Positions 5,709 through 12,827 of a stretch of 64,000 nucleotides of DNA are shown in pieces (positions within the stretch are counted from its first letter, which is position 1; each line of letters begins with the position of its first letter). The notes under the pieces were generated by a model. It saw only the letters and a program-made list of their open reading frames with translations. It was not told the origin of the DNA and ran no database searches. The position numbers and the translations under genes are program-made. The DNA is from Stylophora pistillata (taxonomy: Eukaryota): the NCBI RefSeq assembly GCF_002571385.2, contig NW_019217831.1, positions 876,215-940,214 on the forward strand. The letters are read 5' to 3'.

Positions 5709-6583
5709 CTGAAATATCACGAAAGGAAATATTTTTAGTTTACTCGATGAAACGTATGAAGTAGCTGTGTTACGAAAAATAGTGTTGCGTGACATGCATG
5801 ACCTTCTGGAGGCTTAGCAAAAGGTCATCTGAGGTATACAGCCTCGTTGCTCTTAGGCCTTTTTATTATACGTCATGTCTTCAATATACGTGGTTCGTGG
5901 CTCATTAACGGCGAATACGAAGAAATATTTCCTGTAAATAGGCAATATGTCGAAGCCTATTTCCTCAACTTAAGACAATTAAAGTATTTTCCCTAGCCAC
6001 TCCGAAGCCAGTTTTAAATGTAATTTTCGTCTTGGTAACGTTTTGAATAGTAATGGTCTGTAGTAGTGGAAAAATGAGAGACCTATCGCGTCCAATATCA
6101 TAAAATCTATGTCCAATATTACAGATTAAAAAATCAAATAATTTTAAAGAATAATTTTAAAAAAATATGATTTTTAATGTAATCGAAGAAATAAAAAAAT
6201 ATATATAACAAAAATGTGTGATAATGGAAAGATTAATGTTATAGAGTTGAATGTAAAAGAGATGCGTGGAGAGTTGTTTTCTGAAGAGTAAGATTACCAA
6301 TTCTTTGAAAAAGTAGCAAAAATTGACCGAATTTTGAGACTGCATTGATTTTCAAGAGCAGACTCAAAATGCAAAATTCACAGAAAAAAAACTAATATAA
6401 TTACTTTAAGGAGGTAGGGTCAAGTCCATACAAATCATATAAATAAAGTTGTTCGATTAACTTTTCTCTTCACATAACATCATCAGTGATATCCTTTTAT
6501 ACCATAATATGATGCTTCAGCTCTTAGTTCCCTAGTAGATTTTTCTTCCCTTGGCTGGCTAAGGCCGAAAAATTCAAATATAT

Positions 6584-6930
6584 TTAGTGGTTTTTCTTCT
6601 TCTTTGAGGTGAGAGGTTCAGCAGCCTTAAACCTGCTTGCAACATCAACTACAGTCAATGCATATTTATAGACTTTTCTTCCCCTTGGAAGTTTATCACG
6701 AGGAAGGAAAAGAAGATCAGCCTGATGAACTGTGTTTGGAGAATGGATGTCAAAAGTTGGTCGTGGGATATGCTTCGGAGCAGGTAAATAAATCTGCCAG
6801 ATGACCTGCTTCATCAGCCAAAGATTTGCAACATCTTGAGGAAGTCCAGATTCCTTTGCTAGTTTCTTTACTGCGTCCAATCCCTTCCAAAATCCTTTTG
6901 GGCTATAGTTAACTCCTGAAAGTTTTCTTT
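6584..6930 (-). pseudogene. Retroviral-type (rve) integrase, N-terminal half, Maverick-type
   Basis: YSPKGFWKG...WLMKQVIWQIYLPAPKHIPRPTF...HQADLLFLP...YKYALTVVDVASRFKAAEPL. The first catalytic Asp is present; the ORF is truncated before the second D and the E. Confidence 0.85.
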
Positions 6931-7134
6931 CCCTTTTTCTATTGCGTTTAGAAAAGACGAATTGCAGCCAATCCCAAAGCCAAAGCCATTCCTCCGGCAT
7001 AAATCATTTCACCATGTTTTTGTCAGTTGTGTGCGAGGCTTATAAAAGTTGGAAAAATGTGGTTCTTCCACATCAAGCTCTTCACTATGTGCCAAGTTTA
7101 TTATGAAACATTTTTATTTAGAAGAGAAAAAAAA

Positions 7135-9037: not shown

Positions 9038-9167
9038 TCATTTCCCCAAAAATTCTTCGGAGACCAAAAAGAACCACACTTCGCCTTCCAAACGACAGAT
9101 TTTCAGTCGATTATTTTGTTTAGCACAAAGTTAAATAACGGGTTAATTTTGACCCATTTTAAATCCA
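9038..9167. repeat. ~125-bp direct repeat, copy 1 (copy 2 at 12322-12450)
   Basis: catttccccaaaaattcttcggagacc...gacccattttaaatcc occurs twice, each time to the right of a Maverick segment. Confidence 0.85.
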
Positions 9168-9881
9168 GTTGGAAGAAGGTTGGAAAAATTCGATTAGCGT
9201 GTGTGAATAAACGATGAAGAATTTCTCAAATTACTGTCAACACATGTTTTGATGTTGTTTTCAAAGATTTGGTACTTTTTATCGGTCTAAACGTTTTTGA
9301 TTCGTGGCGCTACGCTTTGAGACTCGACTGAAATTTTGAGCTTCAAAAGCGGCATTTTGACGGAATTCAGTTATTATCAATTTTCTCGAAAACAAATCAA
9401 TATTCAGCCAAACGAAGTATAAGGTGCTTTGTTTCACCGTAATGCTCACCAAACTTGAGAATATGAGCCGAATCAATTTTTTGGCTGTTGCCACAATATT
9501 TTGAACATTTTTCGAGTTTCTGGTCACATTTGCTCTTTATCTCCTTAACCGTCTCCCTGTTAACAGATTAAACAGTGGAAAGCACCTTCAAGGCTGTTCT
9601 CTTTGGACCGCAAATACAGCCAGAATGAACCCTCATGTTGAAAAAGAGTTGTGGATGTCTAAATATGTGTAGGCAGTCATGGAAATAGTTGCGAATAATG
9701 GGGCGGATAGCCGAGACATATGCTCCCAGTTTTAAGTCTCAGGAAGCAATTATCGTTCACAATACACAATTGATTACATCAATTTTTTTCTTTTTTTTAT
9801 TTATCAATTGACCTGATTCGTATTACAATGAACTCAGGACATTGATTGGAAGTAATGAAAATGCTTCCATGTTACAAAGAG

Positions 9882-12827
9882 TTAAATCTCCAAATTGTTA
9901 GCATGAGCCACAGCTATTTCTTTCAGCTCAACTACGTTGCCATCGCCGGTCCTGACAATGCGATGTTCTACAACGTGGTTTTGGGGCAGTGTGACAGGCT
10001 GCTTTGTTCTATGCAAAAAAAACCAAAACAAAACAAGAGAAAACAAAAACAAAAAAGGAAAGAAAAAATAACAACTGAGTAAAGGAAAAAAACCAACCAA
10101 AAACAAACAAATAATAATATTACAAATGATAATAATAATGAAAATGACAATAAAATTAAGACAAATTTAAAAGAAGGGAAACAAATGGCGAAACAAATGC
10201 TACAGAAACAAGAGCACAACAAGCGTATAATCTGCTTTCATTAGCGTTGGGTGTTTTGACTTCACTTCTATAAATTTTGCCATTGATTTCTTCATTATAG
10301 TTCAGCAATTACTTTCATCATTAATGGCTATTACGTACATCACCCTTGGCATTATATATTGCGTGAAGAGAAAGTACGAAAAGGAGGATTTGAGTTCTAC
10401 AGAGGATACGGTTAGCTTTTTGTTCCTTGTTGACTTTACTCATCCGCGAATCCCAAATAAATATTTTAAGAAAAATTAGTGTGTGTCGTCTTCAGCTTCT
10501 TCAATTTTGAAAAAGCAAAAGAGAAGAGGCAAATATTTAAAAGGGCATTTCACAACCATCAAACCTCATCCAGAGACAAAAGTCTTACTTGTAAGTAGTG
10601 TGAAACTGGCATCTGTGGTAACCGCCTCCTTTGAGCAGAAGGAACATAGTCACATCTGGANTTTGTTTCTTTCTTTGCACTGAATTAACCCTCTTCTGCA
10701 CTAAAGTAACTGAAAACTGCATTCATCTTAACCAATCAGAACTGAGAAGTTTTTTCATGTATATTATTAGTTTTAAAACTGAAGAAAGAAACCACTCAGT
10801 CTTTTGTCGAATTCAATTCTCAACTCTTTGCGAGTGTAAGCAGAGAGCCTAACTCTTTTTGGTATTCTTTTTTTATCTCTTCTCTGAGAGTTGCATCATC
10901 GACTTTTTCTTTAGAATTTTGTGAATAACTTTTTTTGAGTTCTTTTTTCAATGAATAATATTGATCAATTTCATTCAATATCGAAGCAGATTCAGCATCT
11001 GATATCGAAGAGTCTTTCAAAGCTTTCGACACGAGTCGGCTGATTGTGCGATGCCTCGCCTCAGCGAGAGAGACAGTTTTTTCATGTTTCTCAGTCTTTT
11101 TGACGAGAGATTTGTTCACGAGAGTCGTCACAGCAGACATGAAGCCAAGTAAACCCGCAATACTCGCCATAGAAAGCAATTACAATACCCACCCCGCTTA
11201 AAGCGCCTGCCAAACCACCTATTAACAGACGTGACTGACGATGTTATGTGGCACACAGATTTTGCTCTCTTGTATTTTTTAGCGACTTCCTGGTGATGAG
11301 AAATCTCATTTTCAATTTCCTTTTGACAATCACAAATCTTTTTCAACCTAAAATCAAGCGGTATGCTTCCTGAATGTGGAAGAGAAGGATAAAGACTTTT
11401 CAGATCAAGTGGTGGAGCAGTTGCATTCGAAGAGCTTGGTAAAATATTTTCGGCAGACATTTCTTTCATAATAATTAAATTATTTCAAACTCAAATCTCA
11501 TTGGCATTCCATTAAAATCAATTATTTTTCCAGTTTCATCAGTCACGAAAAACTTCATTTATGTTATTTCATACCTTGGATTTATTTTTCGCAATGGTTC
11601 AGTTTCACAAAAATATTTCACCCTTTCAAAGGGTTGTCCGACAATGTCGAAACACCCGAGAACTATTGACACGTCTCCATTGAATAGGTTTTCATTCTTA
11701 TCCAAAAGATCAGTTTATAACGTAGTTGTTAAATGATGTTAACCTTTCGACAAAGTTGATTTTTTGCAAACTTCGTTTAATTCCAAGAAGATCAGCCAGA
11801 TCATTATCGAGAAGAATCTTTTTGTTTTGAGGATTATAAATTTCCAAACTTCCCACTGAAGCATTCACGGAACTTGACTCCTTCGTTTTTTAATTTATCT
11901 TCAAGAGCTTCGCTAAGGCTTTTCAGTAATTTCCTTCAGGAATTGTCTTTACGGATGAATTGTCCTGAGCATCAAATACTGAAATTTCTCCAAACCAACT
12001 TAAGTTATGCCATGAGTTGTAAAGAGAACTGCTCAACAATGATCTCTTACGTGAAGTAATTACAGCCTCCCTTCAACGAAACGGGAATCAAGTTATATCG
12101 CTATTGTGAGAGCAATGCAACAATTTCAAGACTACAGTCCTTTTTTGTGATACAACAACATGGAGAGTAAGCGGATATTATGCTAAATAAGCTGTAGATT
12201 CAAAGTAAAATGCAAAACAATCAAGTTTTTGCGTATGGATGTGTACAGTTTTGACTACCTGACAGCACTGTCAAATCAGCGCTTTTTATCCAGCTTTAAA
12301 CTTGATTGAATCGCATTGAATCATTTCCCCAAAAATTCTTCGGAGACCAAAAAAAACCACACTTCGCCTTCCAAAAGCCAGGTTTTCGGTCGATTATTTT
12401 GTTTAGCACAAAGTTAAATAACGGGTTAATTTTGACCCATTTTAAATCCCCNTTGATACATTATCAGGCCCTTCTTTGACGACTGCGATGAAATATTATT
12501 CAACTTTGTCCTTAACAATGAATTTTAATGCATTAAGTAATAGGCTCCTGAATGCATGGTAATAAAATAATTTAAGGTCTGTCTTTTAGGAGCCACTTAC
12601 TCGTTAGGATTTCCGTTTCCATTTCCTTTGATCGTAAAGGGATGTCCATTGACACAGCCAGTCATCTCAAATTTCATCTCCATTTTGTCGGTAATGCCCT
12701 AAATAAGTAAGAAAGCAAAGAATATTATTTTCTACTGAAATTAATAATTCAGCCACCTAATTCGATTTTCCAGCGGATTGCTTGTATTCAGTTCCTACAG
12801 ACTATCTCAAACAGTACGACACACCAT
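9882..12827 (-). CDS. GFP-like fluorescent protein gene, partial (exon 12601-12698 and last exon 9882-10008; probable ATG exon at 12825-12827; middle exons not seen)
   Basis: ag|[32 protein letters not shown](E)|gtaag matches anthozoan FP strands 1-2. ag|[41 protein letters not shown] matches strands 10-11 including the catalytic Glu. Both introns are phase 2 at positions typical of coral FP genes. Confidence 0.85.
10820..11460 (-). pseudogene. Maverick membrane-associated protein (coiled coil - Gly/Ala hydrophobic hairpin - coiled coil), frameshifted
   Basis: MSAEN...ATAPP...LYPSLP...[17 protein letters not shown]...KKYKRA / [16 protein letters not shown] / [10 protein letters not shown]...[13 protein letters not shown]...[13 protein letters not shown]. 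Confidence 0.7.
11475..12045 (-). pseudogene. Maverick minor capsid (penton-like) protein, degraded
   Basis: Manual translation with shifts: [14 protein letters not shown]...KTIPEGNY...LADLLGI...[12 protein letters not shown]...[15 protein letters not shown]...[23 protein letters not shown]. Confidence 0.75.
12322..12450. repeat. ~125-bp direct repeat, copy 2
   Basis: Near-identical to 9038-9167; ends at the single-N join at 12452. Confidence 0.85.

What the first reader, a model, noticed from the sequence alone, without database searches (positions are those of the whole stretch)
6430..12045. Endogenous Maverick/adintovirus-like virus remnant between two TPR-CHAT paralogs
Integrase, packaging ATPase, pPolB tail, minor capsid and membrane-protein genes are all on the minus strand, intronless and tightly packed, with one ATGA stop/start overlap. 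The pPolB tail and minor capsid are absent from the ORF track and appear only on manual translation. No major capsid or adenain protease is visible. The element sits in a defence-like gene cluster and is split in two segments (6430-9030, 10790-12045).
Basis: partly seen in the sequence, partly recalled or inferred. Interest (0 to 1): 0.7.

Follow-up and report, generated by a model that had tools for sequence, protein, structure and literature searches.

The report
Broken coral polintovirus remnant
This is a broken, quarter-length leftover of a virus-like mobile element (a Maverick/polintovirus) that has dozens of other copies in the same genome, likely a coral's; it is an ordinary fossil, and its place beside TPR-CHAT genes is likely coincidence.

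Summary
The window keeps about 3.7 kb of a ~15 kb Maverick/polintovirus family with many copies in this genome (55 terminal motifs, control 0; terminal inverted repeats; perfect 5-bp target duplications in 9 of 15 end pairs). Integrase start, A32 ATPase, pPolB tail, penton and a two-helix membrane gene are present on the minus strand, and the ATGA overlap is at 8796-8799. Every recognisable core gene is truncated, frameshifted or stopped, both termini are gone, and one RNA run shows almost no reads. The major capsid gene is missing only here (18 of 31 other copies have it). No adenain protease was found in any of the 31, which is already reported for some cnidarian Polintons. The gap between the segments holds arms of an unrelated foldback transposon, a GFP-like pseudogene exon and a scaffold gap. 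The 'defence cluster' is weak: one TPR-CHAT neighbour is broken, the other has only TPRs, and the genome has at least 137 CHAT matches. Coral polintoviruses are published. New member of a known kind; interest low.

The parts
6114..6401 (.). Decayed interior of the left terminal inverted repeat; the AGTAGTAG terminus itself is not present
   Evidence: local alignment scores 73-103 against four sibling left ends versus at most 52 in 20 shuffles each; no terminal motif within 6 mismatches in window 1-16000; blastn hits 6301-6373
6599..6931 (-). rve integrase, about the first third only; the rest is deleted
   Evidence: residues 5-113 of a 332-aa sibling ORF, 79%; rve E=0.028 here, 0.00092 in the sibling, both under cut-off
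6954..7104 (-). 3' third of a small conserved gene with a hydrophobic N-terminus in siblings; frameshifted, about 560 bp deleted at 7093
7138..7425 (-). 96-codon open frame with one hydrophobic segment and low-complexity tails
   Evidence: mean hydropathy 2.04 over 19 residues; matches in 5 sibling copies
7437..7706 (-). Low-complexity frame with a 75-bp duplication
7762..8173 (-). Conserved gene of unknown function downstream of the ATPase; one frameshift
8199..8799 (-). A32/FtsK-type genome-packaging ATPase; one frameshift
   Evidence: Pox_A32 E=8.7e-08; best PDB sequence hit STIV B204 ATPase E=0.073; frames
8796..8962 (-). Last ~50 codons of the protein-primed DNA polymerase, frameshifted; TGA overlaps the ATPase ATG (8796-8799)
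8963..9037 (.). 75 bp of unknown origin joining the polymerase tail to the foldback arm
   Evidence: no blastn, tblastn or profile match to fetched loci
9038..9540 (.). Outer part of an arm of an unrelated high-copy foldback (long-TIR) DNA transposon
   Evidence: 40 of 40 scored candidates match, 83-86%; 677-892 bp inverted arms in three copies
9897..10013 (-). Last exon of a GFP-like gene remnant (host)
   Evidence: GFP E=1.3e-09; profile 130-168
10672..10778 (.). Interior piece of the same foldback family, directly left of segment B, just after the N at 10661
   Evidence: 92% to copy C477
10823..11460 (-). Conserved ~205-aa gene predicted to make a helical hairpin membrane protein; two frame breaks
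   Evidence: 195 homologues; sibling model all-helical, pLDDT 64; nearest folds are uncharacterised iridovirus proteins (E=3e-08, 28% identity), weaker SLATT 2TM proteins
11478..12038 (-). Penton (minor capsid) gene lacking its first ~30 codons, with 3 stops and a frameshift
   Evidence: sibling model pLDDT 83, mavirus penton E=1.4e-07, Z 10.4, rmsd 4.5, 211 aligned
12035..12449 (.). Foldback arm resuming right of segment B; 12321-12449 repeats 9038-9166; ends at the N at 12452
   Evidence: 124 of 129 identical; junction bridged by contigs with 0 differences in 3 of 3 contig runs
12513..12683 (-). Upstream exon of the GFP-like gene remnant (host); segment B lies between this and the last exon
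   Evidence: profile 1-57, 2 stops in the match; translation
400..2925 (-). Left neighbour: TPR-CHAT gene, broken
   Evidence: CHAT and TPR hits; 2 TGA in the CHAT match
15965..17358 (-). Right neighbour: TPR part of a paralog; no CHAT part found
   Evidence: 81.5% over 1687-3973 vs 15965-18284; CHAT pieces match only themselves

Best explanation
The stretch is a broken, quarter-length copy of a multi-copy ~15 kb Maverick/polintovirus family of this genome, and it is likely an inert fossil. Shown: sibling copies carry AGTAGTAG termini, inverted repeats, 5-bp target duplications and the order integrase, small genes, ATPase, pPolB, hairpin gene, penton, then a ~545-aa unknown gene and the major capsid gene. 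Inferred from established polinton biology: the intact ancestor integrated through its rve integrase with a 5-bp staggered cut, copied itself by protein priming and packaged DNA with the ATPase into double-jelly-roll capsids with penton vertices, apparently without an adenain. Shown for this copy: both termini, two thirds of the integrase, nearly all of pPolB and everything beyond the penton are gone, and the remaining core genes are broken. Inferred: deletions and recombination involving a nested foldback transposon left segment A abutting one foldback arm and segment B embedded in a foldback copy within an intron of a GFP-like pseudogene; part of the apparent layout may be an assembly effect at the two N gaps. 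The TPR-CHAT neighbours are likely incidental: such tandem-duplicating regions collect transposons.
For: 62 other matches for segment A and 52 for segment B queries among 40 scored candidates each; same order and orientation in C16, C72, C75, C260, C285, C433, C3. 55 terminal motifs vs 0 control. Inverted repeats of 267 bp at 95.5% and 546 bp at 91.8%. 5-bp duplication perfect in 9 of 15 end pairs, 4/5 in 3, none perfect at 6 bp. Capsid_N hits in two sibling ORFs (E about 1e-04, under cut-off), present in 18 of 31 copies. Penton fold. pPolB homologues of ~1245 aa with B-family motifs, Rho_N and endonuclease VII domains. Window covers 3642 of 14927 bases of one sibling and is 79-87% identical to siblings, whose mutual medians are 90-94%. 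RNA depth at most 0.3 over the viral genes in 1 of 1 RNA run laid on the window. Maverick and TPR-CHAT genes are both enriched in non-syntenic regions of Acropora (PMC12314368 passages).
Against: Integrase and major capsid Pfam hits are below curated cut-offs and the capsid was not folded. The sibling polymerase piece had no Pfam, PHROG or PDB sequence hit for its C-terminal 607 aa; its identity rests on motifs in homologues and one PHROG polymerase hit (E=4e-05) for another piece. No typical adenain. Only about 6% of one RNA run was laid on the window, and no small-RNA data were examined. The history of the split is not resolved: the A-to-foldback and foldback-to-B (left) junctions were not shown bridged in the listed contigs.
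Confidence: 0.88

Rival explanations
1. Segments A and B come from two separate insertions of the family, or their juxtaposition is an assembly artefact of a collapsed tandem repeat.
For: Segment B lies on its own 1.8-kb piece between N gaps at 10661 and 12452; its end repeats 9038-9166 at 124/129, against 81-91% to 18 other foldback copies; a host exon lies between the segments; a 100% duplicate beside other N gaps occurs in this window; contig depth over the GFP flanks is higher than over A and B (a poor copy-number measure by the tool's own note).
Against: A and B are in the family's order and orientation, are equally diverged from siblings (means 82, 86 and 83%) and do not overlap in content; GFP exon order agrees with the scaffold order.
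Confidence: 0.25
2. The remnant has been co-opted as an antiviral memory (piRNA or antisense source) within a TPR-CHAT immune cluster.
For: It lies between TPR-CHAT paralogs and is present in contigs of 3 of 3 samples laid. Sibling copies are weakly transcribed, so there would be a target.
Against: Almost no RNA reads on either strand; the neighbours are broken or partial; at least 137 CHAT matches genome-wide; for 7 contigs holding both a family terminus and a CHAT match the nearest distance was 115 kb or more (only 7 contigs compared).
Confidence: 0.05
3. The foldback transposon captured the penton-plus-membrane-gene cassette by template switching during gap repair and can move it as cargo.
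For: Segment B replaces about 285 bp of foldback sequence, with short overlaps at both junctions; the right junction is real.
Against: No second foldback copy carrying the cassette among 40 scored candidates; both genes are broken; the foldback's own ends are not both present around B.
Confidence: 0.12

Closest known systems
Stony-coral polintoviruses (Stephens, Faghihi, Moniruzzaman 2024, PMC11131425; parts 1-3 of 9 and passages read)
   Same: Endogenous elements with MCP, penton, ATPase, PolB and retroviral-type integrase, TIRs, paralogous expansion, many partial copies, low-level expression of hallmark genes.
   Different: That survey required MCP, penton and ATPase in 10-50 kb, so this remnant would not be counted; in the passages seen it does not treat protease absence or target-duplication length. 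Its supplements were not read and may list this family.
Nematostella Polinton-3_NV and Polinton-N1/N1A/N1B_NV (Krupovic, Bamford, Koonin 2014, PMC4028283; parts 1-2 of 4 and Table S1 read)
   Same: Cnidarian Polintons of 14.4-16.6 kb scored MCP+, ATPase+ and protease-negative; protease found in only 74% of 72 Polintons.
   Different: Sequence relationship to this family was not tested; Polinton-3_NV had no penton detected.
Beta adintoviruses (Starrett et al. 2021, PMC8502044; passages and first third of Results read)
   Same: rve integrase, FtsK-type ATPase, hexon and penton, a PolB that does not match pfam03175.
   Different: Collected by their adenain, which this family seems to lack; no gasderminX, cupiennin or PLA2X match was seen.
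pPolB2-class Polintons of nematodes, oomycetes and molluscs (Jeong et al., bioRxiv 10.1101/2023.08.22.554363; passages read)
   Same: Polymerase with an inserted nuclease domain; 13-25 kb, 100-1500 bp TIRs, 5-8 bp target duplications.
   Different: Here the insert scores as endonuclease VII with an N-terminal Rho_N domain; class assignment by tree was not done.

Membership tests
Maverick/Polinton (polintovirus) | [quoted passage not shown] | tested here: met
   Window tail matches the C-terminus of ~1245-aa homologues with DxNxLY and KxxxNSxFG motifs (motif names recalled); siblings hold the body; PHROG DNA polymerase E=4e-05
Maverick/Polinton (polintovirus) | Retroviral-type (rve) integrase | tested here: met
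   rve E=0.00092 in a 332-aa sibling ORF, under cut-off; window holds the first third
Maverick/Polinton (polintovirus) | Terminal inverted repeats of 100-1500 bp, 13-25 kb length | tested here: met
   Family level: 267 and 546 bp TIRs, 14.5-15.3 kb in three copies. The window copy keeps only a repeat remnant
Maverick/Polinton (polintovirus) | Target-site duplication of 5-8 bp | tested here: met
   5 bp perfect in 9 of 15 end pairs; range from Jeong et al.. Not testable on the window copy, whose ends are lost
Maverick/Polinton (polintovirus) | A32/FtsK packaging ATPase | tested here: met
   Pox_A32 over cut-off in window and sibling
Maverick/Polinton (polintovirus) | Single jelly-roll penton | tested here: met
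   on a sibling ORF 66% identical to the window pieces
Maverick/Polinton (polintovirus) | [quoted passage not shown] | tested here: inconclusive
   Capsid_N E=1.4e-04 and 1.9e-04, under cut-off, in siblings; fold not predicted; absent from the window copy
Adintovirus in the sense of Starrett et al. 2021 | Adenain maturation protease | tested here: not met
   By sequence only: no tblastn hit (E<=1) or motif in 51 loci of 31 copies using an adenain-like frame from another element of the same genome; best phmmer E=0.1 among 7280 pieces; the genome's single PF00770 match lies elsewhere. A very divergent protease among unassigned frames is not excluded
Adintovirus in the sense of Starrett et al. 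2021 | Beta-class PolB (not pfam03175) | tested here: inconclusive
   No PF03175 hit in siblings or two full-length homologues; no tree was built
Adintovirus in the sense of Starrett et al. 2021 | GasderminX, cupiennin or PLA2X accessory genes | tested here: inconclusive
   None listed in Pfam or fold results; the hairpin model is of low confidence
Adintovirus in the sense of Starrett et al. 2021 | OTU domain at the PolB N-terminus | tested here: inconclusive
   One recalled motif pattern found nothing in three homologues; no fold was predicted
Host piRNA or defence locus | Locus-specific small RNAs | not testable with these tools
   No small-RNA run was among the 24 listed

The most novel reading that the evidence does not exclude
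The family behind this remnant is a distinct, still-transcribed coral polintovirus lineage that builds capsids with no adenain/Ulp1 protease, integrates with a 5-bp stagger, and pairs its penton with a two-helix membrane protein shared with invertebrate iridoviruses, giving a natural model of protease-independent capsid maturation in animal polintoviruses.
Probability: 0.3. Interest if true: 0.5.

Novelty: new member of a known kind. Interest (0 to 1): 0.16.

Why it matters
The locus itself matters little: it is one decayed copy of a kind of element already surveyed across thirty coral genomes. Its use is as a pointer to a family whose copies all seem to lack the maturation protease and which makes 5-bp target duplications; if that holds across its many relatives (thousands of pPolB homologues), it would bear on whether polintovirus capsids need proteolytic maturation. 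The locus also shows how nested transposons, pseudogenes and scaffold gaps can mimic a 'virus inside a defence cluster'.

Tried and rejected
Idea that 8963-9025 is the pPolB N-terminus fused in frame to the tail: weak Rho_N/SAP hits were not borne out by tblastn, blastn or a profile of homologous N-termini; dropped. AGTAGTGG near 6063 as a left terminus: no match to the family terminus and no sibling match there. 6-bp target duplication: 0 of 15 pairs perfect. Related loci in viral contigs with the penton alignment: 16 pattern hits, none confirmed. Integrase piece against phage records: no match. PDB sequence searches for the polymerase piece, hairpin alignment and ~545-aa unknown gene: nothing informative; Pfam gave nothing for five ~545-aa homologues. 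Protein Atlas gave no result for four queries. Earlier-findings look-ups returned nothing. Paper searches for a described protease-less, 5-bp coral lineage found none beyond the Krupovic 2014 table; Repbase and subscription papers are not covered. A search on Kolobok/TTAA elements gave listings only, so the foldback element's superfamily is left open.
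Full report
Setting. The window is G000:C48:876215-940214 of a 398-Mb, 5513-contig assembly. A GFP-like gene, at least 137 CHAT matches, named homologues from Stylophora pistillata and 'coral metagenome' run labels point to a stony coral; that is inference, and the source was not pursued.

Checking the observation. Six-frame translation and family scans show, on the minus strand, an integrase start, several small frames, an A32-type ATPase (E=8.7e-08), a polymerase tail, and, 1.8 kb further right, a hydrophobic-hairpin gene and a penton. 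The polymerase tail matches the last ~50 residues of five full-length ~1245-aa homologues, and its TGA overlaps the ATPase ATG at 8796-8799. The penton was identified through an open frame of a sibling copy, 66% identical to the window pieces: aligned with 48 of its 57 database homologues (eight partial hits and one further hit left out), it folded at pLDDT 83 and matched mavirus and Sputnik pentons by Foldseek (E=1.4e-07), minor capsids of large DNA viruses, and PBCV-1, mavirus and Sputnik chains at Z 9.9-10.7. All core genes in the window are damaged: the integrase keeps residues 5-113 of 332, the ATPase and tail have one frameshift each, the hairpin gene two frame breaks, the penton three stops, a frameshift and no N-terminus.

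The family. Both segments are repeats: 62 and 52 further matches among 40 scored candidates each (the second count includes foldback matches), in the same order and orientation on C3, C16, C72, C75, C260, C285 and C433. Sibling ends read AGTAGTAG; the 22-base terminal motif occurs 55 times with at most one mismatch, control 0. Inverted repeats are 267 bp at 95.5% and 546 bp at 91.8% in two copies. Of 15 facing end pairs that I chose on shared contigs, 9 have a perfect 5-bp duplication, 3 have 4 of 5, 3 do not match, and none is perfect at 6 bp. Three copies span 14.5-15.3 kb; others range from 1.1 to 27.7 kb through deletions and insertions. A tblastn map over 51 loci, grouped as 31 copies (not all fetched end to end), finds genes of both window segments together in 14 and major-capsid pieces in 18; the capsid call rests on Capsid_N hits under the cut-off. 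In the four near-full-length copies read frame by frame the polymerase is in pieces. Database homologues of the polymerase number at least 7145 and carry Rho_N and endonuclease VII domains without a PF03175 hit. The window copy is 79-87% identical to siblings over three genes, while siblings have median mutual identities of 90-94%: it is older or from a side branch. It covers 3642 of 14927 bases of one sibling and has no terminal motif. No capsid gene lies in the window or the 20 kb upstream.

Protease. The genome has one marginal adenain match, on another contig. Using that frame, neither tblastn nor motif scans found a relative in the 51 loci, and phmmer over 7280 stop-to-stop pieces gave a best E of 0.1. 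Unassigned stretches of 250-2000 bp remain in three near-full copies, and a conserved ~545-aa protein has no Pfam or PDB match and was not folded, so absence is by sequence only. It is not new in kind: Krupovic et al. 2014 found the protease in 74% of 72 Polintons and scored four Nematostella elements of 14.4-16.6 kb as capsid-positive and protease-negative (Table S1).

The split. 9038-9540 is the outer arm of an unrelated high-copy foldback element. Segment B is flanked on both sides by pieces of that same element and replaces about 285 bp of it. Contigs from 3 of 3 contig runs bridge the right junction with no differences; the other junctions were not bridged among the pieces shown (24 of about 2600). 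The two foldback pieces share 124 of 129 bases, more than either shares with 18 other copies (81-91%), so they derive from one local copy, by duplication or by assembly redundancy at the N gaps at 10661 and 12452. A GFP-like last exon lies between the segments and an earlier exon beyond segment B, so B sits in an intron of a GFP-like remnant. One rearranged copy is the simplest reading; two insertions or a collapsed repeat cannot be excluded.

Expression. One RNA run laid on the window (about 6% of it, 93% likeness) gave depth of at most 0.3 on the viral genes. Laid on a sibling stretch at 88% likeness, 4 of 4 RNA runs gave 63-284 reads spread along the element, mostly in the direction expected for sense transcripts in a stranded library. 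The family is weakly transcribed, as reported for Stylophora polintoviruses (PMC11131425 passages); the remnant is not detectably so.

Neighbourhood. The left TPR-CHAT gene has two stops in its CHAT match; the right paralog has TPRs but no CHAT. On 7 contigs where I compared family termini with CHAT matches the nearest distance was 115 kb or more. Acropora genomes hold about 300 TPR-CHAT genes, tandemly duplicated in non-syntenic regions where Maverick elements are also enriched (PMC12314368 passages). The neighbourhood needs no special explanation.

Comparison and verdict. It works like, and at family level meets the tested features of, a Maverick/polintovirus; it is not filed as an adintovirus in the sense of Starrett et al. 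because no adenain was found. Papers seen: PMC11131425 parts 1-3 of 9 and passages, PMC8502044 passages and first third of Results, PMC11071308 passages, bioRxiv 10.1101/2023.08.22.554363 passages, PMC4028283 parts 1-2 of 4 and Table S1, PMC12314368 and PMC6431247 passages. Supplements of the coral survey were not read and may already list this family. Verdict: a real but ordinary viral fossil, new member of a known kind, interest 0.16; the family's apparent lack of a protease with 5-bp integration is the only lead worth following.

Noticed in passing
window 9897-10013 and 12513-12683 (-): Two exons of a GFP-like gene remnant; the middle exons were not found in the scaffold. The genome has 20 GFP profile matches, mostly in small clusters. 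RNA reads on the last exon diverge part-way and likely come from a paralog.
   Followed up: partly
window 9038-9540, 10672-10778, 12035-12449; L078:2814-6307: High-copy ~3.5 kb foldback element with 677-892 bp inverted arms, TTAA at both ends in one of three copies inspected and no long open frame; superfamily not assigned.
   Followed up: partly
G000:C15:1116141-1117224, C605:135790-138567, C1691:15675-18566: Short end-to-end derivatives of the polintovirus family (1.1-2.9 kb) with perfect 5-bp duplications; either internal deletions after insertion or non-autonomous elements moved in trans.
   Followed up: partly
L115 (G000:C152:56653-56955, -): An adenain-like frame, probably from a second, protease-bearing polinton family in the same genome.
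   Followed up: partly
L043:2204-4014 and 5608-8661; L045:3385-7371: Large insertions nested in the C16 copy; one reads like a piggyBac-type transposase (recalled resemblance, not tested).
   Followed up: no
window 15773-15956; L053:4187-4490: A 15-bp tandem repeat beside the truncated end of the right TPR paralog also sits inside the C260 polinton copy.
   Followed up: no
window 18526-18825 and 21619-21918: At least 300 bp identical at 100%, starting right after an N; likely an assembly duplicate.
   Followed up: no
L041:348-968 and homologues: The hairpin gene beside the penton resembles uncharacterised invertebrate iridovirus proteins and, weakly, viral SLATT two-helix proteins; several homologues lie on contigs of the same length as pPolB homologues, suggesting the pair travels together in other genomes.
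   Followed up: partly
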